This document shows, one piece after another, positions 30,878 through 46,079 of a stretch of 64,000 nt of DNA (within the stretch, counting starts at the first letter, position 1; each line of letters opens with the position of its first letter). Position numbers and translations under genes: made by a program. The notes under the pieces were generated by a model, which was not told the DNA's origin, did no database searches, and saw nothing but the letters and a program-made list of their open reading frames with translations. The stretch comes from Microtetraspora malaysiensis (GTDB lineage: Bacteria; Actinomycetota; Actinomycetes; Streptosporangiales; Streptosporangiaceae), in NCBI RefSeq assembly GCF_001528665.1, contig NZ_BBYJ01000004.1, positions 310,472 to 374,471 of the forward strand, written 5' to 3'.

Positions 30878-30886
30878 CAGCGCTGT
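30839..30886. repeat. 12-bp tandem repeat x4 (atgagcacaccg on minus strand) encoding MSTP MSTP MSTP MSTP at the 5' end of the giant ATPase gene
   Basis: cat at 30839-41, 30851-53, 30863-65, 30875-77 on plus strand, each followed by the same 9 bases. Confidence 0.85.
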
Positions 30887-30926
30887 CGTGGGCGCGTCAC
30901 GTGGTCCTCGGTGCCGGGTCGCACCA

Positions 30927-33074
30927 TCAGTGCTTCGCCGAGTTGGCCGGCGCCGAACCGGCCTCGGCCGGTGCACCGGTTCTCGAGCCGGCCGCCGTAC
31001 CCGTCGCCCCGGCGACGGCCGAGAGCGACCGGTCGGCGACGCCGAGGCTGCGGGCGGCGCTCAGCAGATCCTGGAGCTTGCCCGCGTCCGGGCCACCCGC
31101 GTTGATCAGCTTCAGCAGCACGGCCGAGAGCGTGAGGTTCCGTACGTCGGCGGTGTCCACCGAGCCGACGAGGCGCATCAGGTCCGCGGGCAGGCTCGCC
31201 GTCCCGTCCAGGTATGGCCCGGCCAGCGCCCGCGTCACCGCGGAGTTCTCGACGAAGCCGTCCACGCTCCGGCCCGCCGTGATCGAGTTCATCAACCGGT
31301 CGAAGAAGACGGTGTCGCCGCCCACGATGTCGATGTCGGCGTTCTCCAGGCCCGCGGCGAGCACGGTCGCCTGGGCGTCCGCGATCTCCCGCTGGACGTC
31401 GATGTTCTTGAGGCGGATCTCCTTCTCGGCCTCCAGCCGCAACCGGTACTCCTCGTGGCCCCGGCTCGCCTCGTCGAGCGCCGCCATGGCCTCGGCCTTC
31501 TCCTTGAGGCCCTCCGCCTCCGCCTTCAGCTTCTCGCCCACGGCGGCGGCAGCGGCGAGGGCCTTCGCCTGCTCGCCCTCGGCCTCCGCCTTGAGCCGCT
31601 CGCCGACGGCGAGCGCGGCGGCCAGGCCCTTCTCCCGCTCCACGGCGGCCTCCGCGCGCCCGACCTTCTCGATCGCCTCGGCGTCCCGTTCGCGTACCTG
31701 CACCTCGGCGAGCCCGGCGGCCGCCGCCTCGGCCCGCAGCCCCTCCGCGAGGCGGATCTTGGCCTGGCTGTCGAGCTCGGCCGCCTGCTGCCGCGCCTCG
31801 GCCAGGACGAGTTCCTCGCGCGCCTTGAACGTGGCCGCCTGCTCCGCGGCCTCGGCCGCCTTGATGTCCTTGACCAGGTTCTCCTGTGCCTCGGCCTCCG
31901 CCTGGATCACCAGCGCCTGACGGACCCGCTCGGCCTCCTCGACGACGCGCAGGCGCTTGATGTTCTCCTCCTGCTCGGCGACCGTCTTCTCCACGGCGAT
32001 CCGCTCGCGGGTCACTTCGGCGATGGCCCGCCGCTCGACTTCGAGCTCCTTGTCCTTGGAGATGCGCGACAGCTCGGTCTCCCGCTCGCGGGAGATCACC
32101 TCCAGCAGGCGATCCTTCTCGATCCGCTCGCTCTCGATGGCGATGACCCGCTCGCGGTTCTTCCCCGCGACCTGGATCTCCCGCTCGCGGTTCTCGCGCT
32201 GGATGCCGAGCTGCTCCTCCGTACGGATGTTGGCCGCCTCGAACTTGAGCCGCTCCTCCGCCTGCACCCGGGCCGTCTCGGCCTCCTCCCGCGCCCGCAC
32301 GGTGTCGATCTCGCGCCGCTGCTTGGCCTCGGCGTCGGCCTGCCGCCGCTCCAGTTCGAGGATGGCCTCCCGCGCGTCGACGTTCTGGCGGGTGATCTCC
32401 TTCTCCTCGTTGCGCTGGTACTCATTGGTGCGCACGTGCTCGATCGCCGTCAGCTCGGTGATCTTCCGGATGCCCTGCGCGTCGAGGATGTTCGCCGGGT
32501 CGAGCTGGGCGAGCGGGGTCTGCTCCAGGAAGTCGATCGCGGCGTCCTCCAGGCTGTAGCCGTTCAGGTCGGTTCCGATCACCCTGATGATCTGGTCCCG
32601 GAATTCGTCGCGCTTGGTATAGAGATCGACGAAATCGAGCTGCTTTCCGACCGTCTTGAGCGCCTCGGAGAACTTGGCGTTGAACAGCTCCTGCAAGGTC
32701 GTCTCGTCGCTCGCGCGTACCGTGCCGATCGCCTGCGCGACCTTGATCACGTCTTCGACCGTCTTGTTGACCCGTACGAAGAACGTGATCCGGATGTCCG
32801 CCCGGATATTGTCGCGACAGATCAGCCCTTCATGCCCGGTACGCGTGATCTCAATGGTCTTCACGGAGATGTCCATCACCTCCGACTTGTGGAGAACGGG
32901 AAGCACGACGGCGCCCGTGAAGGTGACATCGACCCGCCGCGTCTTGGAGACGATCAGCGCCATGCCCTGTTCGACCTTGCGATAGAGGCGGCTCACGACG
33001 ACGACCGCGCCGATGACGACAAGAAGGAGAACGGCGAGAAGCACGCCCGTCCCGGTGCTGATCACATCCACCAT
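30927..33074 (-). CDS. Flotillin (SPFH/band-7 family) protein with long coiled-coil EA-repeat C-terminal region
   Basis: N-terminal TM helix, SPFH domain (ALIVSKTRRVDVTFTGAVVLPVLHKSEVMDISVKTIEI...), extended Glu/Ala/Arg coiled-coil typical of FloT/YuaG. Confidence 0.85.
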   Translation of the reverse strand: MVDVISTGTGVLLAVLLLVVIGAVVVVSRLYRKVEQGMALIVSKTRRVDVTFTGAVVLPVLHKSEVMDISVKTIEITRTGHEGLICRDNIRADIRITFFVRVNKTVEDVIKVAQAIGTVRASDETTLQELFNAKFSEALKTVGKQLDFVDLYTKRDEFRDQIIRVIGTDLNGYSLEDAAIDFLEQTPLAQLDPANILDAQGIRKITELTAIEHVRTNEYQRNEEKEITRQNVDAREAILELERRQADAEAKQRREIDTVRAREEAETARVQAEERLKFEAANIRTEEQLGIQRENREREIQVAGKNRERVIAIESERIEKDRLLEVISRERETELSRISKDKELEVERRAIAEVTRERIAVEKTVAEQEENIKRLRVVEEAERVRQALVIQAEAEAQENLVKDIKAAEAAEQAATFKAREELVLAEARQQAAELDSQAKIRLAEGLRAEAAAAGLAEVQVRERDAEAIEKVGRAEAAVEREKGLAAALAVGERLKAEAEGEQAKALAAAAAVGEKLKAEAEGLKEKAEAMAALDEASRGHEEYRLRLEAEKEIRLKNIDVQREIADAQATVLAAGLENADIDIVGGDTVFFDRLMNSITAGRSVDGFVENSAVTRALAGPYLDGTASLPADLMRLVGSVDTADVRNLTLSAVLLKLINAGGPDAGKLQDLLSAARSLGVADRSLSAVAGATGTAAGSRTGAPAEAGSAPANSAKH

Positions 33075-33086
33075 CGAAGATCCCTG

Positions 33087-33647
33087 CTATTGAAGGTCGT
33101 AAGGCATGACCAAGAAGAACTCGCCCTCCGGGTCATAGTCGAAGATCAGAGCGGAGCTGCCGGCACGCAGATCCTCGTCTCCGGTCTGGCGCACCTGCAC
33201 AAGGGCCGAGGAGCCGTCATCGGCCGTGACCTCGGCCTGACCGAAGTCGTGCCCGACCCGTCCCGTGCGGATGACGCACATGCGGCCGACGAAATCGGCC
33301 CGGGACGGCGAAGCCACCGCGGGGAACAGGGCGCGGCTCGCCCGCGCGACCAGGCGGGCGCAGAGCCATCCGGCCAGCAGCGCGACCACGAGCACCGCCC
33401 ACCGAGCGGGAGGCCCCTCGGCCAGCACCACGCCGACCAGGCTGACGAACCAGGCGACCACGACCAGCAGCGACAGCGCCACGGCACCCGGCACTCCCCG
33501 TAGGCCGAGACCGGCGAGGAAATCGTCGGGGAGCTCCATCCCGAGTCCGCCGAGCAGCACGAGCGCCCAATAGACGATGACGACGATCAGCATGAAGCTG
33601 AACAGCACCGCCGGAAACTCCAGCACCGCATCGACGAACCGCGCCAT
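33087..33647 (-). CDS. NfeD-like membrane protein (flotillin partner, YuaF-like OB-fold)
   Basis: Three to four TM helices then C-terminal beta OB-fold (GRMCVIRTGRVGHDFGQAEVTADDGSSALVQVRQ...); 13 bp upstream of flotillin on same strand. Confidence 0.7.
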   Translation of the reverse strand: MARFVDAVLEFPAVLFSFMLIVVIVYWALVLLGGLGMELPDDFLAGLGLRGVPGAVALSLLVVVAWFVSLVGVVLAEGPPARWAVLVVALLAGWLCARLVARASRALFPAVASPSRADFVGRMCVIRTGRVGHDFGQAEVTADDGSSALVQVRQTGDEDLRAGSSALIFDYDPEGEFFLVMPYDLQ

Positions 33648-33831: not shown

Positions 33832-35964
33832 TCAGCGGATGGTCTGCCGCTCGGTCAGGGCGGCATACCGGCCGCCGTGCCGCATCAGCTCGTCGTGGGT
33901 GCCCCGTTCGACGATCCGGCCCCTCTCGACGACGAGGATCTGGTCGGCGTCGCGCACCGTGCTCAGCCGGTGGGCGATCACGATGCGGGTCTGGGTCAGC
34001 CAGGCGAGGTTCCGCTCGATCGCGGCCTCGGCGGCGGTGTCGAGATGGCTCGTCGCCTCGTCGAGCAGCAGGACCCTGGGCTGGGGCAGGAGCGCCCGCG
34101 CGAGCGCGATCCGCTGCCGCTGCCCGCCGGAGATGCCGCTGCCCTCAGTGAGCATCGTCTCGTACCCCATGGGCATGGCCATGATGTCGTCGTGGACGCA
34201 GGCCATCCTGGCCGCCGCCACCACCTGCTCCAGCGAGGCGTCGGGAACGGCCAAGCCGATGTTGTCCCTGATGGTCCCGGTGAAGAGGTGCGGCTCCTGG
34301 GTGACCACGCCGAAGCGGCTACGCAACCAGCGCGCGTCGATGTCCCACGCAGGCATCCCGTCGTACCAGACGTCACCCTCGACCGGCTGGTACAGGCCCA
34401 GCAGGATCCGTCCCAGCGTGCTCTTGCCCGACCCGGAACTGCCCACCAGGGCGATCTTCTGCCCGGGTCCGACCGCGAGCGACACGTTCCTGACCGTCCA
34501 TGGGGAGCGCGGGTCGAAGCGGAATCCGACATCCCGGAGGACCACCTCTCCGCGCAGGTGCGGCCGCTTCCTGCCTCTCCGCTCGGGCTCGGCCTCGACG
34601 ATGTCGGCCAGCCGCTCGAAGTGCGCCCCTGCCTCCTGGAGCTCCTGCAGGCTGGTCAGCAGCGAGGTCAGCGGGGTGAGGGTGGACATGGCCAGCGCGT
34701 TGAGCGCGAGCATGGTGCCCAGAGTCAGCTCGCCGTCGAGCACCCGTGACGCGCCCACGAGCAGCAGCAGCGCGGGACCGAGGACCCTGATCCCCGACAG
34801 GACCGCATCCAGGGCCCCGCGGGTCAGGCCGAGACGCACGTCGGCGTTCATCTGGGCGGTGAACATCCTGGACCACCGCTCCATGGCACGCCATTCGGCG
34901 CTGGACGCCTTGATGGTCTCGATGCCTCCGATGGACTCGATGAGCCGGCCCTGGGTCGTGGCGGCGGCGGTCAGCTCGCGCCCGGTCAGGTCGGCGATCC
35001 GCCTCCGGGTGGCCAGCAGCAGCGCGACCTGGACGACCGCCACGGCGAGCAGGCATCCTCCGAGCACGGGATCGCCCAGGAGGACCAGAGTCATGAGGAC
35101 CGCGGCCATCGGACCGTCGAGCAGCGCGGAGAGCGCCTGGCCGGAGAGCATGGCCCGGAGGCTGGCCGCGCTCTGCGTGCTCATGACCAGGTCGCTCGTC
35201 CCCCTGAGGGTGAAGAACCGGTAGGGCAACGTGAACAGGTGCCCGACCACACCCGCCGTGAACTGGGTGTCCGCCCGCGCCCGCAACATGAGCAGCACGG
35301 CCGTACGGAGGTACGTGAGGATCGCCTGGATGAGCACCACGAAGCCGAGCCCCACGATGAGGATCCGCAGCAGATAGCGGTTCCCTCCGGGAAGTACCTC
35401 GTCGACGACGAGCCCGGAGAGCAGGGGAAGGACGAGGGTGACGCCCTGCAGCAGCAGGGACGCGAACAACCCCTGGAGCAGCAGGCCTCGGTGGCGGGCC
35501 AGCAGGGCGCGGACCAGGTCCCGGCGCCACGGGCGGCGCTGCGGGCCCCGGACGTCGAACTCGGGGCCGGGTTCGAAGGCCAGGACGACCCCGGTGAACC
35601 CGACGTCGAACTCCTCCGGCGTGAGCCTGCGCCGCCCGGAGGCGGGATCGACGACCTCGACGACGTCCGGGCGCCAGCGCTCGACGACCAGGAAGTGGTT
35701 GAACTCCCAGTGCACGATGAAGGGCCCGGGCACCGCGCCGAGCTGCTCGGGGGCGAGCGAGAACGCCTTGACGCGCAGGCCGTACGATCTGGCGGCCTCC
35801 GCGACGGCCGACGCGCTCAGCCCGTCCCGCGACACCTGGACGTGCTCGCCGACCTCGCGCACGGTCGTGCGGCGTCCGTGGTGCCTGAGAACCATCGCCA
35901 GGCAGGCGGCGCCGCAGTCGGCCATCGTGGCCTGCCTGATCACCGGTACCCGCCCGCGCCTCAT
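33832..35964 (-). CDS. Peptidase-C39-domain ABC transporter (bacteriocin/RiPP leader-cleaving exporter)
   Basis: N-terminal C39 papain-like domain with catalytic Cys context QATMADCGAACLAMV; 6-TM ABC exporter domain; nucleotide-binding domain with Walker A GSSGSGKST, signature LSGGQRQR, Walker B LLLDEATS. Start ATG 35962-64 overlaps upstream stop (ATGA). Confidence 0.85.
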   Translation of the reverse strand: MRRGRVPVIRQATMADCGAACLAMVLRHHGRRTTVREVGEHVQVSRDGLSASAVAEAARSYGLRVKAFSLAPEQLGAVPGPFIVHWEFNHFLVVERWRPDVVEVVDPASGRRRLTPEEFDVGFTGVVLAFEPGPEFDVRGPQRRPWRRDLVRALLARHRGLLLQGLFASLLLQGVTLVLPLLSGLVVDEVLPGGNRYLLRILIVGLGFVVLIQAILTYLRTAVLLMLRARADTQFTAGVVGHLFTLPYRFFTLRGTSDLVMSTQSAASLRAMLSGQALSALLDGPMAAVLMTLVLLGDPVLGGCLLAVAVVQVALLLATRRRIADLTGRELTAAATTQGRLIESIGGIETIKASSAEWRAMERWSRMFTAQMNADVRLGLTRGALDAVLSGIRVLGPALLLLVGASRVLDGELTLGTMLALNALAMSTLTPLTSLLTSLQELQEAGAHFERLADIVEAEPERRGRKRPHLRGEVVLRDVGFRFDPRSPWTVRNVSLAVGPGQKIALVGSSGSGKSTLGRILLGLYQPVEGDVWYDGMPAWDIDARWLRSRFGVVTQEPHLFTGTIRDNIGLAVPDASLEQVVAAARMACVHDDIMAMPMGYETMLTEGSGISGGQRQRIALARALLPQPRVLLLDEATSHLDTAAEAAIERNLAWLTQTRIVIAHRLSTVRDADQILVVERGRIVERGTHDELMRHGGRYAALTERQTIR

Positions 35965-36149
35965 CGCCCCGCTCCGAGCGCGGGAAGGACGCCGATCAGC
36001 ACCACGGCCGCCATCGCCATCGCGAGCAGCCCGACGTAGATCCACAGGCCGACCAGGAGCCTCCTGGAGATCCGGTACGGCCGCTCGACGCGCCGCCGGG
36101 CGGCCATGTGGTGGTGAACCGCCTTCTCCCGGTACGGAAGTCCCGTCAT
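35961..36149 (-). CDS. Small single-TM membrane protein (62 aa) translationally coupled within the graspetide operon
   Basis: ATG 36147-36149 overlaps the stop of the upstream parvulin-like gene (ATGA), and its own stop overlaps the ABC transporter start (ATGA). Sequence MTGLPYREKAVHHHMAARRRVERPYRISRRLLVGLWIYVGLLAMAMAAVVLIGVLPALGAGR has one hydrophobic helix. Confidence 0.45.
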   Translation of the reverse strand: MTGLPYREKAVHHHMAARRRVERPYRISRRLLVGLWIYVGLLAMAMAAVVLIGVLPALGAGR

Positions 36150-37198
36150 GTGCCGGCCCGCCCGGCCGTACCGGTCGAGTTCGCGACGCCGGAAGAGCCG
36201 GACGCGGCGGTCCGGTCCGCGGTCCCCCAGAACCATTCGATCTTGGCCGTGCTCCTGCGCCGCTCGATCCATTCGGCGAAGATCCGGCGCTCGACGAGCT
36301 CGCGCACGGTCCCGTCGAGAACGGCGGGCTCCACGGCCAGCACCTTGATCAGCAGGTGACCGTGTTCCGTCGCGAAAGGACCGGTGACCGTCCCCGGCGC
36401 GGCTCCGAAGACCCGGCCGGCCGTCTCTGGGCTCAGGTCCCCTCTGCGCAGCGTGGCGAACACCTCGCCCGGCCGTGCCGTGCCGTCCGCGAAAGCCCGC
36501 TCCGCGGCGTCGAGGAACCCGTCGGCGGCCGGCACGCGCGGCCCTTCGGTGAACTCCACCCGCGCGACGCGGGCGACGTCGAACTCGTGACCGTGCGCGG
36601 CGAACCAGTCATCGACCCGGCCGGCGGCCACCCGCGACCGGAGTCCGGCCACGGACGCCTCAAGGACGACCAGCTCCTCCAGCTCGTGGTGGGAGATGTG
36701 GTTGCGGTCCATCCATGCCCGGACCGCGCCGCCGGTCAGCAGCCCACGCGCCCGGCGGAACGCGTCCATCGCCTCCTGGAGCTCCGCGTCGGTCAGCGGT
36801 TCGGGCTCCTCCTCCCGCACCTCACGTACGAGGCTGTCGGTGACGAGGCGGTCGGCCAGCCGCGACTCGTCCCAGATGAAATCCAGGCAGGCGATCGCCC
36901 TGGCCACCGGGGTCTCGACACCGTTGACCCGGAGCAGCAGGTGCTCACCGGCCCGGTGGACACCGCGCAGCGGCCAGGGCAACGCCCGGTCGGGGCACCA
37001 GGAGAGGGAGATCGTGGCGCCGTCGCGTTCCTTGATGAGCAGAGCGTGATGGAGCGATCCGTCATATTCCTCACGCTGGGCGACCAGCCGCACCCGCGCC
37101 CCCGGGTACCGCGCCCTGAAGCCATCGAGGTCGTGCCCGGCCGTACCGGCGCCGAGCATGTCGATCGCCTCGGCGAGCATCCGTCCGTCCGTCACCAC
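36146..37198 (-). CDS. Peptide-maturation-system protein with C-terminal PpiC/parvulin-like domain
   Basis: C-terminal GEVFATLRRGDLSPETAGRVFGAAPGTVTGPFATEHGHLLIKVLAVEPA resembles parvulin rotamase fold; start GTG 37196-98 overlaps ATP-grasp stop (GTGGTGA); family of accessory proteins reported next to SAV_5884-type ATP-grasp RiPP maturases. Confidence 0.55.
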   Translation of the reverse strand: MVTDGRMLAEAIDMLGAGTAGHDLDGFRARYPGARVRLVAQREEYDGSLHHALLIKERDGATISLSWCPDRALPWPLRGVHRAGEHLLLRVNGVETPVARAIACLDFIWDESRLADRLVTDSLVREVREEEPEPLTDAELQEAMDAFRRARGLLTGGAVRAWMDRNHISHHELEELVVLEASVAGLRSRVAAGRVDDWFAAHGHEFDVARVARVEFTEGPRVPAADGFLDAAERAFADGTARPGEVFATLRRGDLSPETAGRVFGAAPGTVTGPFATEHGHLLIKVLAVEPAVLDGTVRELVERRIFAEWIERRRSTAKIEWFWGTADRTAASGSSGVANSTGTAGRAGT

Positions 37199-38157
37199 GT
37201 CACTCCGCTCATGAGCAGCTCGCCGACCGCCGCGCCGATGGGCAGCCCGGTCGCGTCCTCGATCCAGAGGAACTGGCCGTTCGGATTGATCTCCAGGAAG
37301 ACATGGCGGCCGTCCGGCGTGAGGATCAGGTCGATCGCGCCGTAGGCCAGCCCGAGCCGCTCGACCAGATCCAGGCACCGCTGGGAGATCTCCGGCGGCA
37401 GGTCGTGCGCCCGGATGGGCGTCGCGCCGGGGTCGTAGTGTCGCCAGTCGTACCGGGTGTGGTTGCTCACCTGGGAATGGATCTCCGCGGCGAAGACCTT
37501 CCTGCCCACCACGGTCACGCGTATCTCGACCCGCTTGGGCACGTACGCCTGGACGATGACCGGGCAGAAGCGCAGGGCGTCCGCGTAGGCGACGTCCACA
37601 GGGGTGACGGGGGCCGCGAACCGGCCGAACCGCTCTCCCTCCGCTTCGAGCTGGTTGCCGTGCACGGGCTTGGTGATCACACGGCCCTCGTGCCGGTCGT
37701 AGAAGTCGAGAAAACTCTCGGGGTCGGTCGTGACCAGCGTCGCGGGGAGCTCAAAGCCCAGCCGCCTGGCCAGTTCGAGCTGGTACGGCTTGCGCGCCGC
37801 GCGGTCGATGACCGGCCGGGAGCCGGGAACCGTGAGGCAGCCGAGGCTGTCCCAGAGGCTCTCGGCCATGACGCGGCACTCCTCCTCCACGTAGTCGCGG
37901 GCGGCGACCCTCGGATGCGCGACCGGGTCGAGGGGCCTGCGGTACCAGAGCGCGGTCACCTCGTCGAGGACGAGGCGGCGGCCCGCGCGGCCGAACATCC
38001 GGCTGGTCGAACCATCCCCGGAGTGGCTGATCTCGAGGGTGGCGGCGGTCGGGAAGGAGGCGGGATCGAAGACGACGACATCCGCGCCCGCGGTCATGAG
38101 CGGTTTCACGACCCGGTCGGCGTGCTCATCTCCGTCAGAGGTCAGGACGAGGATCAT
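37192..38157 (-). CDS. ATP-grasp ribosomal peptide maturase (MvdD/MdnC-like; graspetide macrolactone/lactam ligase)
   Basis: Start MILVLTSDGDEHADRVV (hallmark N-terminus of RiPP ATP-grasp ligases), ATP-grasp fold motifs (VITKPVHGNQ, EIHSQVSNHTRYDWRHYD, GAIDLILTPDGRHVFLEINPNGQFLWIE); 50 bp downstream of precursor gene. Confidence 0.8.
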   Translation of the reverse strand: MILVLTSDGDEHADRVVKPLMTAGADVVVFDPASFPTAATLEISHSGDGSTSRMFGRAGRRLVLDEVTALWYRRPLDPVAHPRVAARDYVEEECRVMAESLWDSLGCLTVPGSRPVIDRAARKPYQLELARRLGFELPATLVTTDPESFLDFYDRHEGRVITKPVHGNQLEAEGERFGRFAAPVTPVDVAYADALRFCPVIVQAYVPKRVEIRVTVVGRKVFAAEIHSQVSNHTRYDWRHYDPGATPIRAHDLPPEISQRCLDLVERLGLAYGAIDLILTPDGRHVFLEINPNGQFLWIEDATGLPIGAAVGELLMSGVTW

Positions 38158-38206
38158 CGGCGGGGCTCCGGACGGGGGCGCGACGCGGTCGCGCCCCCGC
38201 GGCGAA

Positions 38207-38356
38207 CTAGTTGCTGTCGCCGGAGGTGTGCGTGTGGTTGCCGCAGATCTCGATGACCTGGCTCTTGGCGCCACCGCTCACCTGAAGAAGCTGACCCTCG
38301 TCGAGCTCCGGACCGAAGGCCGCGATGTCGTCGAGGGTGGTACGCGTCTTGCTCAT
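38207..38356 (-). CDS. Graspetide precursor peptide (49 aa) with double-glycine leader
   Basis: Ribosome-binding site GGGAGAAAGG 10 bp before ATG 38354-56. Sequence is MSKTRTTLDDIAAFGPELDEGQLLQVSGG / AKSQVIEICGNHTHTSGDSN: leader ends in GG (substrate for the C39 transporter), and the core carries Thr/Ser hydroxyl donors and Asp/Glu acceptors. Confidence 0.7.
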   Translation of the reverse strand: MSKTRTTLDDIAAFGPELDEGQLLQVSGGAKSQVIEICGNHTHTSGDSN

Positions 38357-38655: not shown

Positions 38656-39546
38656 TCAGCGGACGCGGCCGACCATGCGCGCGTACATACGGCCGGGACT
38701 CGGCACTGAGGGCGGGTGCAGGAAGCCCGGCAGCATGGGCAGGTCGACGGAGAAAGGCTGCAGTCGCTCGTAGAGCGTGACGGCGTCGGCGGGGCGATTC
38801 TCCGGCTGCTTCTCCAGCAGCTCGGCGATCAGCCGGTCGAGCTCGACCGGGACGTCGGGCACCGACGGCGGGCGTTCCTTCACCTGCTTGTCGAACACGG
38901 CGTACTCGGTCGGCCCCGTGAACAGCGGCTTGCCGGTCAGCATCTCGTGCAGGACACAGCCGAGAGCGTAAAGATCGCTCTTCGGGCCGGCGACGCCGCG
39001 CTGGATCTGCTCCGGCGACATGTACGCGGGGGTGCCGAGGATCTGCCCGACCCGGGTGAACTGGGCGCCGTCCGACTCGCGCAGCATCGCCAGACCGAAG
39101 TCGAGGACCTTGACGCTGCCGTCGGGGCAGAGCATCAGGTTCGTCGGCTTGAGATCACGGTGACAGATGGACAGCGCGTGCGCCGCGGTCAGCACCGCGC
39201 ACGCCTGGGCGGCGATCGCCGCGGCCCACGGGACCGGGAGCGGGCCATATTCGCTGACCAGGTCGGCGACCGTGACGCCCTCGATGAACTGCATCACCTG
39301 GAAGAGGCGCTGATCGTACGTGCCGAAGTCGTAGAGGACGGGCGCGCCCGGATGCTCCAGGCGGGCGAGGATGCGCGCCTCTCGGATGAACCGGCGCTCC
39401 AGCTCCTCGTCATGACCACCCGGAAAGCGGAGGAACTTCACCGCCACCTTGCGGTCGAGACGCCTGTCGTGGCCGCCGTAGACGGCCCCCATGCCGCCCT
39501 GGCCGAGAGGAAGGTCGTCCAGCTCATACCGGTCACCGATGACCAT
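38656..39546 (-). CDS. Ser/Thr protein kinase (catalytic domain only, 296 aa)
   Basis: [33 protein letters not shown] motifs; 38 bp downstream of the methyltransferase gene on the same strand. Confidence 0.8.
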
Positions 39547-39584
39547 CCGCCCCTCCCGTCGGACTTTCGGGAAAAGCTACACCT

Positions 39585-41696
39585 TCACGCGCGCGGTCGT
39601 AGACGGCCGTCAACCAGCCCCTCCAACCCCAGCCGGATCAGCGCCTCGCCCGCGTCGGCCACTTCCCTGATCGCGTCCTCCAGTTCGGCGAGCCGCCGGA
39701 AGGCCGCCCCGTACGCCCGCTGCTCGACCAGCGGGAGCCGCGGGACGCGAGCCCGGCGGACGTCGACGCGGCTGGCTCCCGGGTGCGCCCGGGCGGCCGC
39801 GTACCGCAGGAATCCGGCGAGGAAGTCCGCGTCGAGCCGGGACCGATCCACCTGGTAAAGCGAGAGCTGCGGGCCGAGGACGGCGCCCGGCTGGTGGATC
39901 ACGCGTGCGGTCGTCGTCGAGGCCACCACGTCTCCGGCCGCCACCGTGACGATGCCGGGCTCACTGCCGGAGCGACCGGACGGCGTCCCGCCTCGGGCGA
40001 GGTCGTCGGCGGTCAATACGTTGAGATCTCCGCTGTCCGCGGTTTTCAGCACCGAATGCCGCACCGTCACCATCCCGGCCTTGGCCAGATCGGTGATGGC
40101 GGTCGTGGGGAGGCCGGCTCGCCCGGACAGCACCTCCAGGTCGGGCAGCGCCCCCGCCGCCTCGGCCAGCACCTCGGCGAGGTCGCGGAGCCCGCGCCCG
40201 GCGGCGGGATAACGCTGCGCGTCGCCACGTGAGGAGACGTGCCGGGCCGGGCTGACGTCCACCTCGTCGTCGAGCAGATCGATGATCCGTACGATCCGGG
40301 CAGAGCGCGGCAACTCGCCTGCCGAGGCCACCGCCGCGGCCTGCCTCGCAACGCCACCGGACGTCCGGCCTTCGGCCACCGAACCGGCGGCCGGCCCGCG
40401 TCGGGCGGCTTCCGGCGCTGCGGGACCGGCCGTGTCCGTGCCGGCGAAACCTTCGCCGGCCGTAGGACTCGTGCCGACGTAACCCGCGTCGGCCAGGTAG
40501 GTCCACCAGGCCGACTCGACGATCGAGAGGTCGTCGGAGGCGTCGGCGAGCAGGATCGACGCCGGGGAGGGCGCCCCCGCCTCCGGCCGGCGCAGCAGCC
40601 AGAGATCCGGCCCCGCGGCGGACAGGCCGATGACCGCGCGCAGGGCTCCGGCGCGGAGCAGGTTCGCGCGGATCCGACGGCCGGAACGCCGGGCCGCGGC
40701 CGCGGCCGGCATCAGGATCGCCACCAGGCCGCCGGGACGCGCGTGGGCCAGGCAGTGCTGGACCCAGGCCAGCTCCGGCTCGCCGCGCGGGGGCACGCCG
40801 TAGTCCCAGCGCGGATCGCCGATCAGCTCCTCGTGGCCCCACGCCCGCTCGTTGAAGGGCGGGTCGCACAGCACCACGTCCGCCCGCTCGCCCTCGAATC
40901 CGTCGTGCCGTAACGAGTCGCCCGCCACGACGCGCGCGTTCGCGTCGCGCAGGAGGAGCCGCAGCGAGGCGAGCAGAGCAGAGGTCTCGTTGATCTCCTG
41001 GCCGAGCAGACGCACCGGCGGCGCACCGGGCGGCGCGCCGTCGAGGACGGCGGTGTCCGAGACCGCGAGCAGGAGCGTTCCCACACCGACCGCCGGGTCG
41101 AGGATCGCGCCTCCTTCGGGACACGCCTGGCGCGCGAGCCGCGCCATGAGCGACGCCACCTCGCCCCGCGTGACCGCGAGCCGCCGGGTGTGCGCCTCCA
41201 CGTAGCGCTCGCAGACGAACTCGAACGCGGTGGCCGGTCCGTGGAGCGCGGACAGGTCCGCGATCCACCGGATGAGCTGCGCGTCCTCCAGGACGCTCCC
41301 CGGCCGGGCCGGAAGGTCGGCCGTGGCCGCCGCGACCTCGCGCGGCAGCCGTACGACCAGGTCGGGAGCGGCGGCGAGCCGGCGCCAGCCGTCGGGATCC
41401 CGTCGCGCGTAAAGGAGGAACGCCCCCGCGAAACCGCTGAGCTCGCCCAGCCGGAGGTCGTCCACGGCGGCCCTGAGCCCCTGCCAGACACGGTCGCCCA
41501 GCGACACCTCGAAGGACTTGCCGTTCCTGCGCAGCCACTCCTCGATCTCGGGCAGCGAGAACAGCGGGCTGGACGCGGTGCCGCCCACCGGGTGGGGAAA
41601 GTCCTCATACCGACGGCGCCAGTTGCTCACCGCGGCCCTCCCGACGTCGGCTAGGCGGGCGATGTCGCCCGCGTTCACTGTGGCGTCGTGGCTCAT
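39585..41696 (-). CDS. N6-adenine DNA methyltransferase fused to HsdS-like target-recognition domain, with N-terminal HTH
   Basis: Motif I ILDPAVGVGTLL, motif IV LCDPPFN (gamma-class N6A methyltransferase); C-terminal PRLPLVEQRAYGAAFRRLAELEDAI resembles the conserved HsdS helix; N-terminal MSHDATVNAGDIARLADVGRAAVSNWRR HTH. Start set to ATG 41694-96 to leave a divergent promoter. Confidence 0.7.
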   Translation of the reverse strand: MSHDATVNAGDIARLADVGRAAVSNWRRRYEDFPHPVGGTASSPLFSLPEIEEWLRRNGKSFEVSLGDRVWQGLRAAVDDLRLGELSGFAGAFLLYARRDPDGWRRLAAAPDLVVRLPREVAAATADLPARPGSVLEDAQLIRWIADLSALHGPATAFEFVCERYVEAHTRRLAVTRGEVASLMARLARQACPEGGAILDPAVGVGTLLLAVSDTAVLDGAPPGAPPVRLLGQEINETSALLASLRLLLRDANARVVAGDSLRHDGFEGERADVVLCDPPFNERAWGHEELIGDPRWDYGVPPRGEPELAWVQHCLAHARPGGLVAILMPAAAAARRSGRRIRANLLRAGALRAVIGLSAAGPDLWLLRRPEAGAPSPASILLADASDDLSIVESAWWTYLADAGYVGTSPTAGEGFAGTDTAGPAAPEAARRGPAAGSVAEGRTSGGVARQAAAVASAGELPRSARIVRIIDLLDDEVDVSPARHVSSRGDAQRYPAAGRGLRDLAEVLAEAAGALPDLEVLSGRAGLPTTAITDLAKAGMVTVRHSVLKTADSGDLNVLTADDLARGGTPSGRSGSEPGIVTVAAGDVVASTTTARVIHQPGAVLGPQLSLYQVDRSRLDADFLAGFLRYAAARAHPGASRVDVRRARVPRLPLVEQRAYGAAFRRLAELEDAIREVADAGEALIRLGLEGLVDGRLRPRA

Positions 41697-41753
41697 GACG
41701 ACAAGCTTAGCTGGAGCTTGTGAAGTCATTCAACCAGTGCTTTACTCAAAAGC

Positions 41754-42747: not shown

Positions 42748-43416
42748 TCAGGGGCGGAAGCGATAGCCCATGCCGGGCTCGGTGATGAGGTGCACGGGGT
42801 GGGCGGGATCCTGCTCCAGCTTGCGGCGGAGCTGTGCCATGTACTGCCGGAGGTAGTGCGTCGCCGTCACATACGTGGCACCCCACACCTCGGTGAGCAT
42901 CTGACGCTGGCTGACCAGCTTCTCGGGGTTGCGCAGCAGGATCTCCAGCAGGTGCCACTCCGTCGGGGTGAGCCGTACGCCGCTCGAGATCGTCTTGTCG
43001 GCCAGGTTGATCGTGTGGTCGCCGATCCGCACCACCGGGGTCTCGGCCTGCTGCGCCGCCGCACGGCGTGTGGCGGCGCGGACTCGGGCGAGCAGTTCGT
43101 CGAGGCCGAACGGCTTGGTGACGTAGTCGTCAGCCCCCGCGTCGAGGGCGCTGACCGCGTCGGCGCTGCCCACCCGGCCGGTGAGCACGATGATCGGCAC
43201 CTGGCTCCACCCGCGCAGGCCGTGGATCACGTCGATGCCCTCGATGTCCGGCAGGCCCAGGTCGAGCACGACAAGGTCGGGATGCCAGTCGGCGGCCTGG
43301 CGTAGCGCGGAGCCGCCGTCCGCGGCGACCGCCACCTCGTAGTGCCGGGCGGCGAAGTTGATGCGCAGCGCGCGGAGGATCTGCGGCTCGTCGTCGACGA
43401 TGAGGATCTTGGTCAT
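42748..43416 (-). CDS. kdpE: KdpE response regulator (OmpR family)
   Basis: 222 aa; receiver domain (ILIVDDEPQILRAL...DLVVLDLGLPD) plus winged helix; immediately downstream of and overlapping kdpD (ATGA). Confidence 0.85.
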   Translation of the reverse strand: MTKILIVDDEPQILRALRINFAARHYEVAVAADGGSALRQAADWHPDLVVLDLGLPDIEGIDVIHGLRGWSQVPIIVLTGRVGSADAVSALDAGADDYVTKPFGLDELLARVRAATRRAAAQQAETPVVRIGDHTINLADKTISSGVRLTPTEWHLLEILLRNPEKLVSQRQMLTEVWGATYVTATHYLRQYMAQLRRKLEQDPAHPVHLITEPGMGYRFRP

Positions 43417-46079
43417 CGGCGCTCCGCCGCGGGCACGTCACCGGACGCGGAGGAGGCGCCGCCATCAGGCCCCGGAGTGCCATCGGGGGTGACGCCGCGT
43501 GGGGCATGTTCGTGCCCGGAGGCGTACTCGGCGACCGTGGTCCAGGCGATGGGCAGCGTGACGGTCATGGTCAGCCCTCCTCCGGGTGTCTCCTCGGGCA
43601 CCAGCGTGCCGCCCATGGCCTCGGTCAGCCCGCGCGCGAGGGCCAGCCCGAGCCCGACACCCGTGTGGTTGTCCCGGTCGCCGAGGCGCTGGAAGGGCAG
43701 GAAGACGCGGTCGTGCGCCTCAGAGGGGATGCCGGGGCCGCGATCGATGACTCTGATCTCCACGAGGCTACCGTGCCTGCTGGCGTTGATCAGCACCTTC
43801 TCCTCCGGGGGGTTGTAACGCACGGCGTTGGCGATCAGGTTGGCCAGCACGCGTTCCAGCAGGGCGGGGTCGGCGGTGATCTCGGGCAACTCGACCGAGA
43901 TGTCCGCGTCGACGCGGTCCCAGAGCGGCCCGAGATCGTCGATCGCCCGAGGCACGATGTCCTCCAGGGCGGTCGGCCGCAGCGCGATCCCGAGCGCGCC
44001 CGCCTGGAGGCGGCTCATGTCGAGCAGGTTCGCCACCAGCCGGTCCAGCTTGAGCAGGGACTCGTCGGCGGTGGCCAGCAGCTCGGCGCGGTCCTCGTCG
44101 GTCCAGTCGATCTCGGTGTTGCGCAGGCTCTCGACCGCGGCCTTAGCCGAGGCGAGCGGGGTGCGCAGGTCGTGGCTGACCGCGGCGAGCAGGGCGGTGC
44201 GCATCTTGTTCGCCTCGGCGAGCGGCCGGGCCTGCTCGGCCTCCTCCTCCAGCCGCTCCTGCCGCAGCGCGATGGCGGCCTCCGCCGCGAACGCCTCCAG
44301 GACCCTGCGGTCGGACGCGTCCAGCAGCCGGCCACGCGCGACGAGCACCAGGTCGTCGTCGATGACCACGTCGGTGTCGGCCGTACCGGGGCAGGCGCAC
44401 GGCGGGCCTCCGGTGGTGGCGACGATGCGCCAGGCGTCCGGGTCGGACTGGTCCCCCGCAGCCGGCTGCCGGCCGCCGCGGCGTTCAAGGAGGGTGACCG
44501 AGGTCAGTCCGAACGTCTCCCGGAGCCGGCCGAGCAGGGACGGCAGGGCCGCCTCTCCGCGCAGCACGTGCCCGGCGAGCGTGGAGAGCACCTCGGCGTC
44601 CGCGCTCGCTCGGGCCGCCTCTCTCGTACGGCGGGCCGCGACGTCCACGACGGCGCTGACCATGGCCGCGACCAGCACATAAATCGCCAGCGCGAGCAGG
44701 TTCTCCGGGCTGGAGATCGTCCAGGTGTAGACGGGCGGCGTGAAGTACCAGTTGAGCAGGGCGAACCCGACCACGGCCGCGGTGATCGCCGGCCACATGC
44801 CGCCGACGAGCGCCACCACGACCACCATGAGCAGGAAGAGCAGGATCTCGCTCGGGAGGGTCAGCTCCTCGCGGAACGGCACCAGCAGGGCGCTCAGCGC
44901 GGGAATGCCGAGCCCGGCGAGGGCCCAGCCCGCCACCCGCCGCCTGCGGGTGAGGGCGGCCCGCGACCGCGCGCCCCTGGTCCTGCCCTTGCTGATCTCC
45001 TCGTGCGTCACCATGTGGACGTCGATGGAGCCGGACAGGGCGGTGGTGGTGACGCCGACGCCGCGGGAGAACAGCTGCGCCAGCCGTCCGCGCCGGGACG
45101 CGCCGAGCACGAGCTGGGTGGCGTTGACCCCGCGCGCGAAGTCGAGCAGCGCGCGCGGGACGTCGTCGCCGACGACCTGGTGGTAGGTGCCGCCGACGCT
45201 CTCGACCAGCGCCCGCTGCCTGGCCAGGCTCGCCGGGTCCTGCCCGGCCAGCCCGTCGGCCCTCGTGACGTGTACGGCGAGCAGGTCGGCGCCCTTGCTC
45301 CTGGCGGCGATGCGGGTGGCCCGGCGCACCAGGGTGTCGCCTTCGGGACCGCCGGTCAGCGCGACGACGACGCGTTCGCGGGCCTCCCATGTCCCGGCGA
45401 TGCCGTGTTCGGCGCGGTAGCGGTCGAGTTGCTCGTCGACCTTTCCGGCGACCCAGAGCAGGGCCAGCTCCCGCAGCGCGGTCAGGTTGCCGACCCGGAA
45501 GTAGTTCGACAGGGCGGCGTCGACCTTCTCCGGCGGGTAGACGTTTCCGTGCGCCATCCTGCGGCGCAGCGCCTCGGGCGACATGTCGACCAGCTCGATC
45601 TGGTCGGCCCGCCGTACGACCTCGTCGGGGACGGTCTCGCGCTGGGGGATGCCGGTGATCTCCTGGACCACGTCGTTGAGCGACTCCAGGTGCTGGATGT
45701 TGACGGTGGAGACGACGTCGATCCCGGCGTCGAGGATCTCGTCGATGTCCTGCCAGCGCTTGGCGGTGCGCGAGCCGGGCACGTTGGTGTGGGCGAGCTC
45801 GTCGACCAGGACCACGCGGGGACGGCGGGCGATGACGGCGTCCACGTCGAGTTCGGTGAGGGTCATCCCCCGGTAGACGAGGGCCTTCCTGGGGACGATC
45901 TCCATGCCGTCGAGCAGTTCGGCCGTGCGGGCGCGGCCGTGCGTCTCGACGAGCCCGACGACCACGTCCCGGCCCCGCTCCTGCGCCCTGCGGCCCTCGC
46001 CGAGCATCGCGAAGGTCTTGCCGACTCCGGGAGCGGCGCCGAGGTAGATCCGGAGCCGCCCACGCGCCATGTGCCTCAT
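43413..46079 (-). CDS. kdpD: KdpD osmosensitive K+ channel sensor histidine kinase
   Basis: N-terminal KdpD domain with P-loop GAAPGVGKTFAML, Usp domain, 4 TM, GAF-like region, HisKA (SHDLRTPL) and HATPase (DRGPGIP, GLGLALA). Confidence 0.9.
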   Translation of the reverse strand: MRHMARGRLRIYLGAAPGVGKTFAMLGEGRRAQERGRDVVVGLVETHGRARTAELLDGMEIVPRKALVYRGMTLTELDVDAVIARRPRVVLVDELAHTNVPGSRTAKRWQDIDEILDAGIDVVSTVNIQHLESLNDVVQEITGIPQRETVPDEVVRRADQIELVDMSPEALRRRMAHGNVYPPEKVDAALSNYFRVGNLTALRELALLWVAGKVDEQLDRYRAEHGIAGTWEARERVVVALTGGPEGDTLVRRATRIAARSKGADLLAVHVTRADGLAGQDPASLARQRALVESVGGTYHQVVGDDVPRALLDFARGVNATQLVLGASRRGRLAQLFSRGVGVTTTALSGSIDVHMVTHEEISKGRTRGARSRAALTRRRRVAGWALAGLGIPALSALLVPFREELTLPSEILLFLLMVVVVALVGGMWPAITAAVVGFALLNWYFTPPVYTWTISSPENLLALAIYVLVAAMVSAVVDVAARRTREAARASADAEVLSTLAGHVLRGEAALPSLLGRLRETFGLTSVTLLERRGGRQPAAGDQSDPDAWRIVATTGGPPCACPGTADTDVVIDDDLVLVARGRLLDASDRRVLEAFAAEAAIALRQERLEEEAEQARPLAEANKMRTALLAAVSHDLRTPLASAKAAVESLRNTEIDWTDEDRAELLATADESLLKLDRLVANLLDMSRLQAGALGIALRPTALEDIVPRAIDDLGPLWDRVDADISVELPEITADPALLERVLANLIANAVRYNPPEEKVLINASRHGSLVEIRVIDRGPGIPSEAHDRVFLPFQRLGDRDNHTGVGLGLALARGLTEAMGGTLVPEETPGGGLTMTVTLPIAWTTVAEYASGHEHAPRGVTPDGTPGPDGGASSASGDVPAAERR

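What the first reader, a model, noticed from the sequence alone, without database searches (positions are those of the whole stretch)
38207..38356. Candidate graspetide core AKSQVIEICGNHTHTSGDSN with double-glycine leader
The precursor has a leader with an acidic/hydrophobic stretch (LDDIAAFGPELDEGQLLQV), which could act as the recognition element for the ATP-grasp ligase. This is followed by GG and a 20-aa core with T, T, S alternating with H, plus E/D carboxylates and a single Cys. The HTHT and ICGN features are unlike microviridin (TxKYPSDW) or plesiocin (TTxxxxEE) cores, suggesting a different crosslink topology or a new graspetide group.
Basis: inference. Interest (0 to 1): 0.7.

Follow-up and report, generated by a model that had tools for sequence, protein, structure and literature searches.

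The report
Rosaritide-type graspetide precursor, His-rich core
This small gene really does encode the precursor of a ring-forming modified peptide (a graspetide), but it belongs to an already described family (group 21, rosaritide type) and stands out only by an unusual histidine-rich core with a single conserved ring-forming aspartate.

Summary
Window 38207-38356 (- strand) encodes the 49-aa peptide MSKTRTTLDDIAAFGPELDEGQLLQVSGG|AKSQVIEICGNHTHTSGDSN. It is the first gene of a four-gene operon: precursor, MvdD-like ATP-grasp ligase, TIGR04500 SurA/PpiC-like protein, C39-peptidase ABC exporter.

The ORF is conserved upstream of the orthologous ATP-grasp gene in 27 other Streptosporangiaceae genomes and evolves like a coding sequence.

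This four-gene architecture is that of the published "group 21" graspetides. Its characterised member is rosaritide (mirABCD, Carter et al. 2026), whose ligase works only with the SurA-like partner. The leader matches the GRASP_targ_2 family (TIGR04497, and PF27893 in a precomputed annotation). It is therefore not a new graspetide group.

The core does differ from rosaritide.
- The only invariant carboxylate is Asp18.
- Alignment puts Ser3 and Asp18 on rosaritide's Ser9-Asp26 lactone. The other two donor/acceptor pairs are lost on both sides.

I predict, as inference, a monocyclic Ser3-Asp18 lactone. The peptide would carry an H/C9-H12-H14 cluster of unknown, possibly metal-binding, role.

Verdict: a real feature and a divergent member or variant of a known kind, of moderate interest.

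The parts
38207..38356 (-). Precursor peptide gene (49 aa + stop). Leader aa 1-29 is at 38270-38356, ending in the double glycine SGG. Core aa 30-49 (AKSQVIEICGNHTHTSGDSN) is at 38210-38269.
   Evidence: Translation. TIGR04497 GRASP_targ_2 hit on aa 5-31, 23.2 bits, below the cut-off of 32. The identical protein P0001 carries precomputed PF27893 = GRASP_targ_2. Conserved in 27 other loci. Codon-position pattern 16/14/32.
38172..38200 (-). 13-bp perfect G+C-rich stem-loop between the precursor stop codon and the ATP-grasp start codon. Likely an intercistronic attenuator or mRNA-stabilising hairpin that raises the precursor:enzyme ratio (inferred).
   Evidence: RNA fold -33.7 kcal/mol, z = -2.2. 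A 10-21 bp hairpin sits at the same place in all 31 loci examined, including distant MAG loci with unrelated sequence.
37192..38157 (-). ATP-grasp graspetide synthetase (321 aa), MirB counterpart.
   Evidence: TIGR04187 at 245 bits and MvdD/MvdC models over full length, all below their equivalog cut-offs. PF21068 MvdD pre-ATP-grasp domain. 46% identity, 263 bits, to the MirB-type ligase of a rosaritide-type BGC (L040). DWR 237-239, E289 and N291 are invariant in 38 homologues.
36146..37198 (-). TIGR04500 'PpiC_rel_mature' SurA-like partner protein (about 350 aa), MirC counterpart. Its start abuts the ligase stop, which suggests translational coupling.
   Evidence: TIGR04500 at 395.5 bits, cut-off 180. 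Weak Rotamase hits. A profile of 16 homologues hits SurA 1m5y at E = 6.7e-10. 37% identity to the MirC-type protein of L040 and 42% to the MirC N-terminal 131 aa.
33832..36045 (-). Peptidase-C39 ABC transporter (PCAT), MirD counterpart. The probable true start is the Met at about 35964. Predicted to cleave after Gly-Gly and export the core.
   Evidence: PF03412 Peptidase_C39 at 114.8 bits, plus ABC_membrane and ABC_tran. The best NCBIfam hit is TIGR03796 NHLM_micro_ABC1 at 634 bits, below its cut-off of 853. 39% identity to the L040 PCAT. Adjacent in 21 of 36 related loci.

Best explanation
The ORF is the precursor (the 'A' gene) of a group-21, partner-protein-dependent graspetide, the family whose characterised member is rosaritide.

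Shown here:
- The gene is real and under purifying selection.
- It heads a conserved operon: precursor, ATP-grasp ligase, SurA-like TIGR04500 protein, and often a C39 PCAT.
- The ligase keeps its catalytic motifs.
- The leader belongs to the GRASP_targ_2 leader family.

Inferred from the rosaritide work and general graspetide and PCAT knowledge:
- The ligase and the SurA-like partner form a complex that binds the leader.
- The complex phosphorylates a core carboxylate with ATP and lets a Ser/Thr hydroxyl attack it, giving a side-chain macrolactone.
- The PCAT then cuts after Gly28-Gly29 and exports the 20-aa product.

My own inference on the product: Asp18 is the only invariant carboxylate. 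Alignment maps Ser3/Asp18 onto rosaritide's Ser9-Asp26 lactone, and both partners of the other two rosaritide lactones are replaced (Ser8 and Asp22 by Lys2 and His14; Thr11 and Asp24 by Val5 and Ser16). The conserved product is therefore most likely monocyclic, with one Ser3-Asp18 ester closing a 16-residue loop around the G10-N/G11 turn. It would display H/C9, H12 and H14.

The core contains no proline in any of the 28 sequences. The 'PpiC-like' protein therefore cannot be acting as a prolyl isomerase on the core. This fits the published chaperone/partner role.
For: - Operon and domain assignments.
- The published mirABCD architecture carries the same NCBIfam models (TIGR04187, TIGR04500, TIGR03796), and MirC is required (PMC13097080). 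Group 21 comprises 325 BGCs, with TIGR04500 at 108%, TIGR03796 at 74% and TIGR04497 at 65% co-occurrence.
- Direct comparison with a rosaritide-type BGC (L040, precursor 89% identical to MirA): ligase 46%, partner 37%, PCAT 39%.
- 27 other loci hold the same precursor family. Coding signature.
- The nearest outgroups (ligase 58-62% identical) have canonical SS...DxDF cores.
- MAFFT places Ser3 on MirA Ser9 and Asp18 on MirA Asp26.
- Ligase DWR/E/N motifs are invariant.
- The partner is SurA-like.
Against: - No experiment exists on this peptide.
- The precursor scores below the TIGR04497 cut-off (23 vs 32 bits) and matches in the leader only.
- The ligase clade is separated from canonical group-21 ligases by an identity gap: at least 74% within the clade, at most 62% outside.
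- The Ser3-Asp18 assignment rests on an alignment of short, gapped cores. Other donors (T/S13, T15, S16, S19) are equally conserved.
- The window's own peptide has an extra Glu7 that could accept a second ring.
- The AlphaFold2 model of the free precursor was uninformative (pLDDT 59).
- The PCAT is not adjacent in 15 of 36 loci.
Confidence: 0.78

Rival explanations
1. One reading: a new graspetide group with a novel crosslink topology built on the HTHT / ICGN features together with the Glu and Asp carboxylates.
For: - The core is unlike any characterised graspetide core.
- A profile search of 1.84 billion representatives found one cluster with this core, and no paper mentions it.
- The ligase clade is distinct, at most 62% identical to its nearest relatives.
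- The clade coexists with a canonical paralogue in the same genome (L020 and L039 of Sphaerisporangium viridialbum).
Against: - Same gene architecture, same partner family (TIGR04500, 395 bits) and same leader family as group 21.
- The ligase scores 263-402 bits against group-21-type ligases. I estimate alignment scores of about 74-116, above the threshold of 70 used to define groups.
- Glu7 and Cys9 are not conserved.
Confidence: 0.1
2. Same family, but bicyclic or differently wired. Glu7 (present in the window and in 8 of 28 homologues) or the C-terminal carboxylate would act as a second acceptor, or Asp18 would be esterified by a nearby Thr15/Ser16 rather than by Ser3.
For: - T/S13, T15, S16 and S19 are invariant hydroxyl residues with no assigned role.
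- Hydroxyl is retained at position 13 across the codons ACG/ACC/TCG/AGC.
- Rosaritide itself has one off-register link, Ser8-Asp22.
Against: - Glu7 is V or T in 20 of 28 sequences.
- It aligns with MirA Asp13, and the mutagenesis section reports that variants of the two adjacent non-acceptor Asp residues (named Asp13/Asp14 in the list and primers, D12A/D13A in the result sentence) still give the triply dehydrated product.
- No graspetide using the C-terminal carboxylate is known to me (from memory).
Confidence: 0.12
3. The peptide is exported essentially unmodified as a double-glycine-leader, His-rich peptide of the bacteriocin or metal-binding kind. The ATP-grasp/partner pair would be inactive on it or serve another substrate.
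For: - Only one acidic residue is conserved.
- The same leader family is joined to many unrelated cores, including CxxCH cores.
Against: - Precursor, ligase and partner are strictly adjacent in all 28 loci, even where the PCAT is absent.
- The ligase catalytic motifs are invariant.
- Ser3 and Asp18 are invariant.
Confidence: 0.04
4. Chance ORF in high-GC DNA, not a gene.
For: High-GC genomes produce many spurious ORFs. ORFs overlap on both strands here.
Against: Conservation in 27 other genomes, third-position-biased variation, Ser codon-family switches, a family-model hit and a conserved downstream hairpin.
Confidence: 0.01

Closest known systems
Rosaritide / mirABCD of Micromonospora rosaria (group 21 graspetides; Carter, Ramesh, Saad, Mubarik, Mitchell, ACS Chem Biol 2026, PMC13097080)
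   Same: - Same four genes in the same order: GRASP_targ_2-type precursor, TIGR04187-like ATP-grasp, TIGR04500 SurA-like partner, TIGR03796-like PCAT.
- Same leader pattern (I-D-x-I-x-x-x-G-x-E-L-x-[DE]-x-Q-L-x-x-[VM]-x-G-G).
- Ligase 46%, partner 37% and PCAT 39% identical to a rosaritide-type BGC.
- Ser3 and Asp18 align with the Ser9-Asp26 lactone.
   Different: - Rosaritide has a 27-aa core with three donors (S8, S9, T11), three acceptors (D22, D24, D26), three lactones and two prolines.
- This family has a 19-20-aa core with one invariant Asp, no proline, three His/Cys positions, and no 'SS' or 'DxDxDF' motif.
- The ligases form a separate clade, at most 62% identical to canonical ones.
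Microviridins (group 1) and plesiocin (group 2)
   Same: RiPPs cyclised by MvdD/MdnC-type ATP-grasp ligases that form side-chain esters or amides. The ligase here hits the MvdD and MvdC models over full length.
   Different: - No TxKYPSDW or TTxxxxEE core.
- One ligase, not two.
- A partner protein is present.
- Double-glycine/PCAT leader removal replaces the PFFARFL-type leader.
Double-glycine (class II bacteriocin / NHLP-type) leader peptides processed by C39 PCATs
   Same: The leader ends in GG, with hydrophobic residues at -4 (V), -7 (L) and -12 (L) and acidic residues between them. A C39 ABC transporter is encoded in the operon.
   Different: The leader additionally carries the N-terminal T-x-[LI]-D-D-I-A-A-x-G segment shared by GRASP_targ_2 precursors. 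This segment presumably serves the ligase/partner complex.
SurA / PrsA parvulin-type chaperones
   Same: The partner-protein profile matches SurA (1m5y, E = 6.7e-10) and PrsA across the chaperone and parvulin segments.
   Different: - Cytoplasmic RiPP accessory protein with an extra N-terminal domain.
- No proline is available in this core, so isomerase chemistry is not applicable.

Membership tests
Group 21 graspetides (rosaritide / mir type) | MvdD-like ATP-grasp graspetide synthetase encoded next to the precursor, with intact catalytic motifs | tested here: met
   TIGR04187, MvdD and MvdC models match over full length, and PF21068 is present. D237-W238-R239, E289 and N291 are invariant in 38 homologues.
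Group 21 graspetides (rosaritide / mir type) | Strict co-occurrence with a TIGR04500 (PpiC_rel_mature, SurA-like) partner protein | tested here: met
   395.5 bits against a cut-off of 180. Adjacent to the ligase in all 36 loci. SurA-like by profile.
Group 21 graspetides (rosaritide / mir type) | Synthetase connected to group-21 synthetases at the SSN alignment score of 70 used in the paper | tested here: inconclusive
   263 bits to a MirB-type ligase and 402 bits to the Thermopolyspora ligase with a canonical core. I convert these to alignment scores of about 74 and about 116 using the EFI formula as I remember it. The published network itself could not be queried, and the stored copy of the dataset file is cut.
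Group 21 graspetides (rosaritide / mir type) | Precursor matches the GRASP_targ_2 model (TIGR04497 / PF27893) | tested here: inconclusive
   TIGR04497 scores 23.2 bits, below the cut-off of 32, and matches the leader only. The precomputed Pfam annotation PF27893 (GRASP_targ_2) is on the identical protein P0001 and on all 9 homologue clusters. Only 65% of published group-21 BGCs have a TIGR04497 hit.
Group 21 graspetides (rosaritide / mir type) | NHLM-type C39 PCAT and a double-glycine cut site | tested here: met
   Peptidase_C39, ABC_membrane and ABC_tran domains. TIGR03796 is the best hit but falls below its equivalog cut-off. The motif V[SN]GG is invariant.
Group 21 graspetides (rosaritide / mir type) | Rosaritide core pattern: N-terminal Ser/Ser/Thr donors and C-terminal DxDxD acceptors giving three interlocked lactones | tested here: not met
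   Only Ser3 and Asp18 are retained. The positions aligned with S8, T11, D22 and D24 are K/R, V, H and S. This core cannot have the rosaritide topology.
Group 21 graspetides (rosaritide / mir type) | Ligase activity depends on the partner protein | not testable with these tools
   Needs co-expression or in vitro reconstitution. Shown only for MirB/MirC.
Microviridins (group 1) | TxKYPSDW-type core, PFFARFL leader, two ATP-grasp ligases (MdnB/MdnC) | tested here: not met
   The core and leader sequences lack these motifs. There is a single ATP-grasp gene in the window.
Plesiocin-type (group 2) | Repeated TTxxxxEE core motifs | tested here: not met
   The core has no such motif or repeat.

The most novel reading that the evidence does not exclude
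The Streptosporangiaceae clade makes a minimal, single-lactone hairpin graspetide whose function is metal coordination.

If Ser3-Asp18 staples a hairpin around G10-N/G11, residues 9, 12 and 14 fall on one face, together with residue 7, which is Glu in the window. Positions 12 and 14 are invariant His. Position 9 is only ever His or Cys, an exchange that needs two nucleotide changes (CAC to TGC). I infer that it arose at least twice, because the closest relative, M. glauca, has His while three Nonomuraea species have Cys.

This would be the first metal-binding, metallophore-like or metalloprotease-targeting graspetide. It would also show group-21 enzymes making a topology reduced from three rings to one.
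Probability: 0.15. Interest if true: 0.65.

Novelty: new variant of a known kind. Interest (0 to 1): 0.38.

Why it matters
Graspetides are a growing RiPP class, and their ring topology is read from core motifs. This locus extends the newly characterised partner-dependent group 21 to a core with one conserved acceptor and a His/Cys triad.

- If the single Ser3-Asp18 ring is confirmed, it would show how a tricyclic scaffold is pared down while the ligase/chaperone pair is kept.
- The clade offers a proline-free substrate, which separates the 'PPIase' annotation of the partner from its actual role.
- It gives a small, testable candidate for a metal-binding graspetide.
- For genome annotation, motif-based graspetide miners that count donor/acceptor pairs may under-call such precursors.

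Tried and rejected
- **AlphaFold2 of the precursor** with its 10-sequence alignment gave mean pLDDT 59 with no hairpin. It is uninformative for or against the proposed fold.
- **Searching the supplements of PMC13097080** for the core (HTSGDS, GGAKSQVI) and for the genera found nothing. The large RODEO table is cut in the stored copy, so absence cannot be concluded.
- **MirB and MirC synthetic-gene sequences** are truncated in the stored supplement. I used a near-identical rosaritide-type BGC (L040) instead.
- **Upstream Ser/Thr kinase (38656-39546) and N6-methyltransferase (39585-41729) as tailoring enzymes** for the HTHTS motif: rejected. Neither is found next to the BGC in any of 36 related loci, and both match anti-phage defence models.
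- **Promoter scan of the 300-bp upstream region:** no sigma-70-like site. This is not informative for an actinomycete.
- **P0130,** a 1510-aa 'protein' with 18 leader-like stretches in the profile search, is a spurious translation of a tandem repeat.
- **A second precursor or ligase copy** in the window: none.

Full report
**1. Observation**

On the - strand, window 38356 to 38207 reads ATG...TAG.

The DNA is high-GC and full of overlapping ORFs, so the ORF alone proves nothing. The following evidence shows it is a real gene.
- A word-indexed search of 5.8 billion proteins found nine homologue clusters. All are 48-51 aa and all come from Streptosporangiaceae. One is 100% identical, from Microtetraspora malaysiensis.
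- I scanned one genome per species with the downstream partner protein and fetched 36 loci.
- In 27 of these loci the same small ORF sits 50-200 bp upstream of the orthologous ATP-grasp gene. They come from Microtetraspora, Nonomuraea, Streptosporangium and Sphaerisporangium.
- Across the 28 genes, variable sites fall 16/14/32 on codon positions 1/2/3.
- Invariant residues are kept through synonymous and even codon-family changes: Ser48 is AGC/TCC/TCG and Arg5 is CGT/CGC/CGG.

**2. Surroundings**

The precursor heads a co-directional operon on the - strand.
- **Hairpin.** A 13-bp perfect GC hairpin (38172-38200) follows the stop codon. A hairpin is present at this position in every related locus, including distant ones whose stems have unrelated sequences. 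This is the familiar precursor-then-attenuator layout of RiPP operons (inference).
- **ATP-grasp ligase** (37192-38157). It matches TIGR04187, MvdD and MvdC over full length and carries PF21068, the MvdD pre-ATP-grasp domain.
- **TIGR04500 'PpiC_rel_mature' protein** (36146-37198). It scores 395 bits against a cut-off of 180.
- **C39-peptidase ABC transporter** (33832-36045). Its best hit is TIGR03796.
[quoted passage not shown] The precomputed Pfam label on the identical database protein is PF27893, which other loci show is named GRASP_targ_2.
- **Upstream kinase and DNA methyltransferase.** These are not conserved beside the cluster in any locus and look like defence genes. They are not part of the system.
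- **Conserved core module.** It is precursor, ligase and partner. The PCAT is adjacent in 21 of 36 loci.

**3. What is already known**

A full-text search found Carter et al., ACS Chem Biol 2026 (PMC13097080).
- Graspetide group 21 has 325 BGCs. TIGR04500 co-occurs in about 108%, TIGR03796 in 74% and TIGR04497 in 65%.
- The group was characterised through mirABCD of Micromonospora rosaria. MirA is the precursor, MirB is a TIGR04187 ligase, MirC is a TIGR04500 protein and MirD is a TIGR03796 PCAT.
- The product, rosaritide, has three macrolactones: Ser8-Asp22, Ser9-Asp26 and Thr11-Asp24.
- MirB is inactive and unstable without MirC.
- MirC is described as a SurA-like chaperone with an RRE-like N-domain, not as a functioning PPIase.

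MirA, translated from the paper's synthetic gene, is MKRKPVQIDTIPADGVELADDQLATMLGG|LPRNGAGSSKTIDDIPGGGRPDTDSDF.

I fetched a near-identical BGC, L040 from Micromonospora sp. WMMD987, whose precursor is 89% identical to MirA. Against it the window's ligase is 46% identical (263 bits), the partner 37% and the PCAT 39%. A profile of 16 partner homologues hits SurA at E = 6.7e-10.

The locus therefore has the group-21 gene set and architecture, not that of a new group.

**4. What differs**

The core table of 28 sequences:
- Invariant positions are S3, Q4, V5, I6, I8, H12, H14, T15, S16, G17, D18 and S19.
- Position 13 is S or T.
- Position 7 is E in 8, V in 17 and T in 3.
- Position 9 is H in 24 and C in 4.
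- N20 is absent in 4.

Asp18 is the only conserved side-chain carboxylate.

The nearest outgroup ligases are 58-62% identical and have canonical precursors:

| Source | Core |
|---|---|
| Thermopolyspora | RRSEDTSSVVIDVSGGGSWRDKDF |
| Rhodococcus | MRDRGRSSKVIDVVDGWTGTDADF |
| Microbispora | QRFDWSSHVISPDGSIDAQDPDF |

MAFFT aligns window Ser3 with MirA Ser9 and Asp18 with MirA Asp26, a real rosaritide lactone. The other two lactones have lost both partners: Ser8 and Asp22 are replaced by Lys/Arg2 and His14, and Thr11 and Asp24 by Val5 and Ser16. Glu7 aligns with MirA Asp13; the paper's mutagenesis shows that the two adjacent mid-core Asp residues are not acceptors, although its text numbers them inconsistently.

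I therefore predict one conserved Ser3-Asp18 ester. The positions are symmetric about the G10-N/G11 turn (3 + 18 = 21), just as 9 + 26 = 11 + 24 = 35 in rosaritide. This is inference from a short alignment, not a result.

Further points on this clade:
- The ligase's catalytic motifs (DWR, E289, N291) are invariant, so it is presumably active.
- No core in the clade contains proline, so prolyl isomerisation cannot be the partner's job here.
- A profile search of 1.84 billion cluster representatives found only one representative with this core. All other hits share the leader only, joined to diverse cores.
- The ligase clade is set apart: at least 74% identity within it, at most 62% outside.
- It coexists with a canonical-type paralogue in at least one genome, Sphaerisporangium viridialbum (L020 vs L039).
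- No paper in the searchable library mentions this core or a His-rich graspetide.

**5. Mechanism**

Steps that are shown versus inferred:
- **Shown for MirABC, inferred here:** the leader is bound by the ligase/partner complex. ATP-dependent acyl-phosphate formation on Asp18 is followed by attack of a Ser/Thr hydroxyl.
- **Inferred from PCAT biology and the leader pattern:** cleavage after GG and export. The leader has hydrophobic residues at -4, -7 and -12.
- **Unknown:** the role of the H/C9-H12-H14 cluster. The His-to-Cys exchange at position 9 needs two nucleotide changes, and no other residue is ever seen there. This suggests a ligand-type function, so a metal site on one face of a stapled hairpin is the most novel reading the evidence does not exclude. 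I put it at about 15%.

**6. Verdict**

It is a graspetide precursor with a double-glycine leader and a core unlike microviridin or plesiocin. It is not a new group, two of the highlighted residues are not conserved, and the essential partner gene was missed.
- Novelty: a divergent variant within a known, recently characterised kind.
- Interest: moderate, 0.38.

Noticed in passing
window 38656-41729 (- strand): A stand-alone Ser/Thr kinase (296 aa) and a 714-aa N6-adenine methyltransferase lie directly upstream of the BGC. They match PADLOC models PD-T4-6/mad6 and MTase_I/mad2/mad1. They are absent beside the BGC in all 36 related loci. This is possibly a MADS-like or other defence island.
   Followed up: partly
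window 25676-30976 (- strand): A 1766-aa protein with DUF3686 ('ATPase involved in DNA repair', 700 bits), DUF7902 and an AAA domain. It is followed by two ORFs with no family hit (30927-33074 and 33087-33647) between it and the PCAT. None of these is conserved next to the BGC elsewhere.
   Followed up: no
window 42748-46079 (- strand): KdpD sensor kinase (888 aa) and an OmpR-type response regulator (222 aa), i.e. a KdpDE pair. This is an ordinary housekeeping two-component system.
   Followed up: no
P0132, P0133, P0137, P0145, P0146: The same leader type (T-x-I-x-D-I-x-x-x-G-P-E-L-D-E-G-Q-L-x-x-V-x-G-G) is fused to short cores ending in C-x-x-C-H (GPCNTCHG, GPCGACH, KCGGCH, SCPSGCHD). They may belong to a different RiPP chemistry that shares the leader and PCAT logic. 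Their gene neighbourhoods were not examined.
   Followed up: no
L021 4856-5051 (Nonomuraea glycinis): The precursor-ligase spacer is expanded to about 200 bp by tandem copies of a roughly 14-nt unit (CCTCACCTTCGGGC-like) downstream of the conserved hairpin.
   Followed up: no
L020 and L039 (Sphaerisporangium viridialbum CP187232): One genome carries both the His-core cluster and a second GRASP_targ_2/ATP-grasp/partner cluster with a different core (MQPESAFTGTGWNSTRDDMVC). Neither has an adjacent PCAT, so any exporter/protease must be encoded elsewhere, unless the leader is removed some other way.
   Followed up: partly
window 36146-37198, partner aa about 250-290: The window's partner keeps a parvulin-like segment (G-D-L-S-P-E...G-P-F-A-T-E-H-G-H-L-L-I-K-V), which gives Rotamase hits at 22-23 bits. 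The MirC-type protein of L040 has gaps there. The degree of PPIase-domain decay seems to vary within the family.
   Followed up: partly
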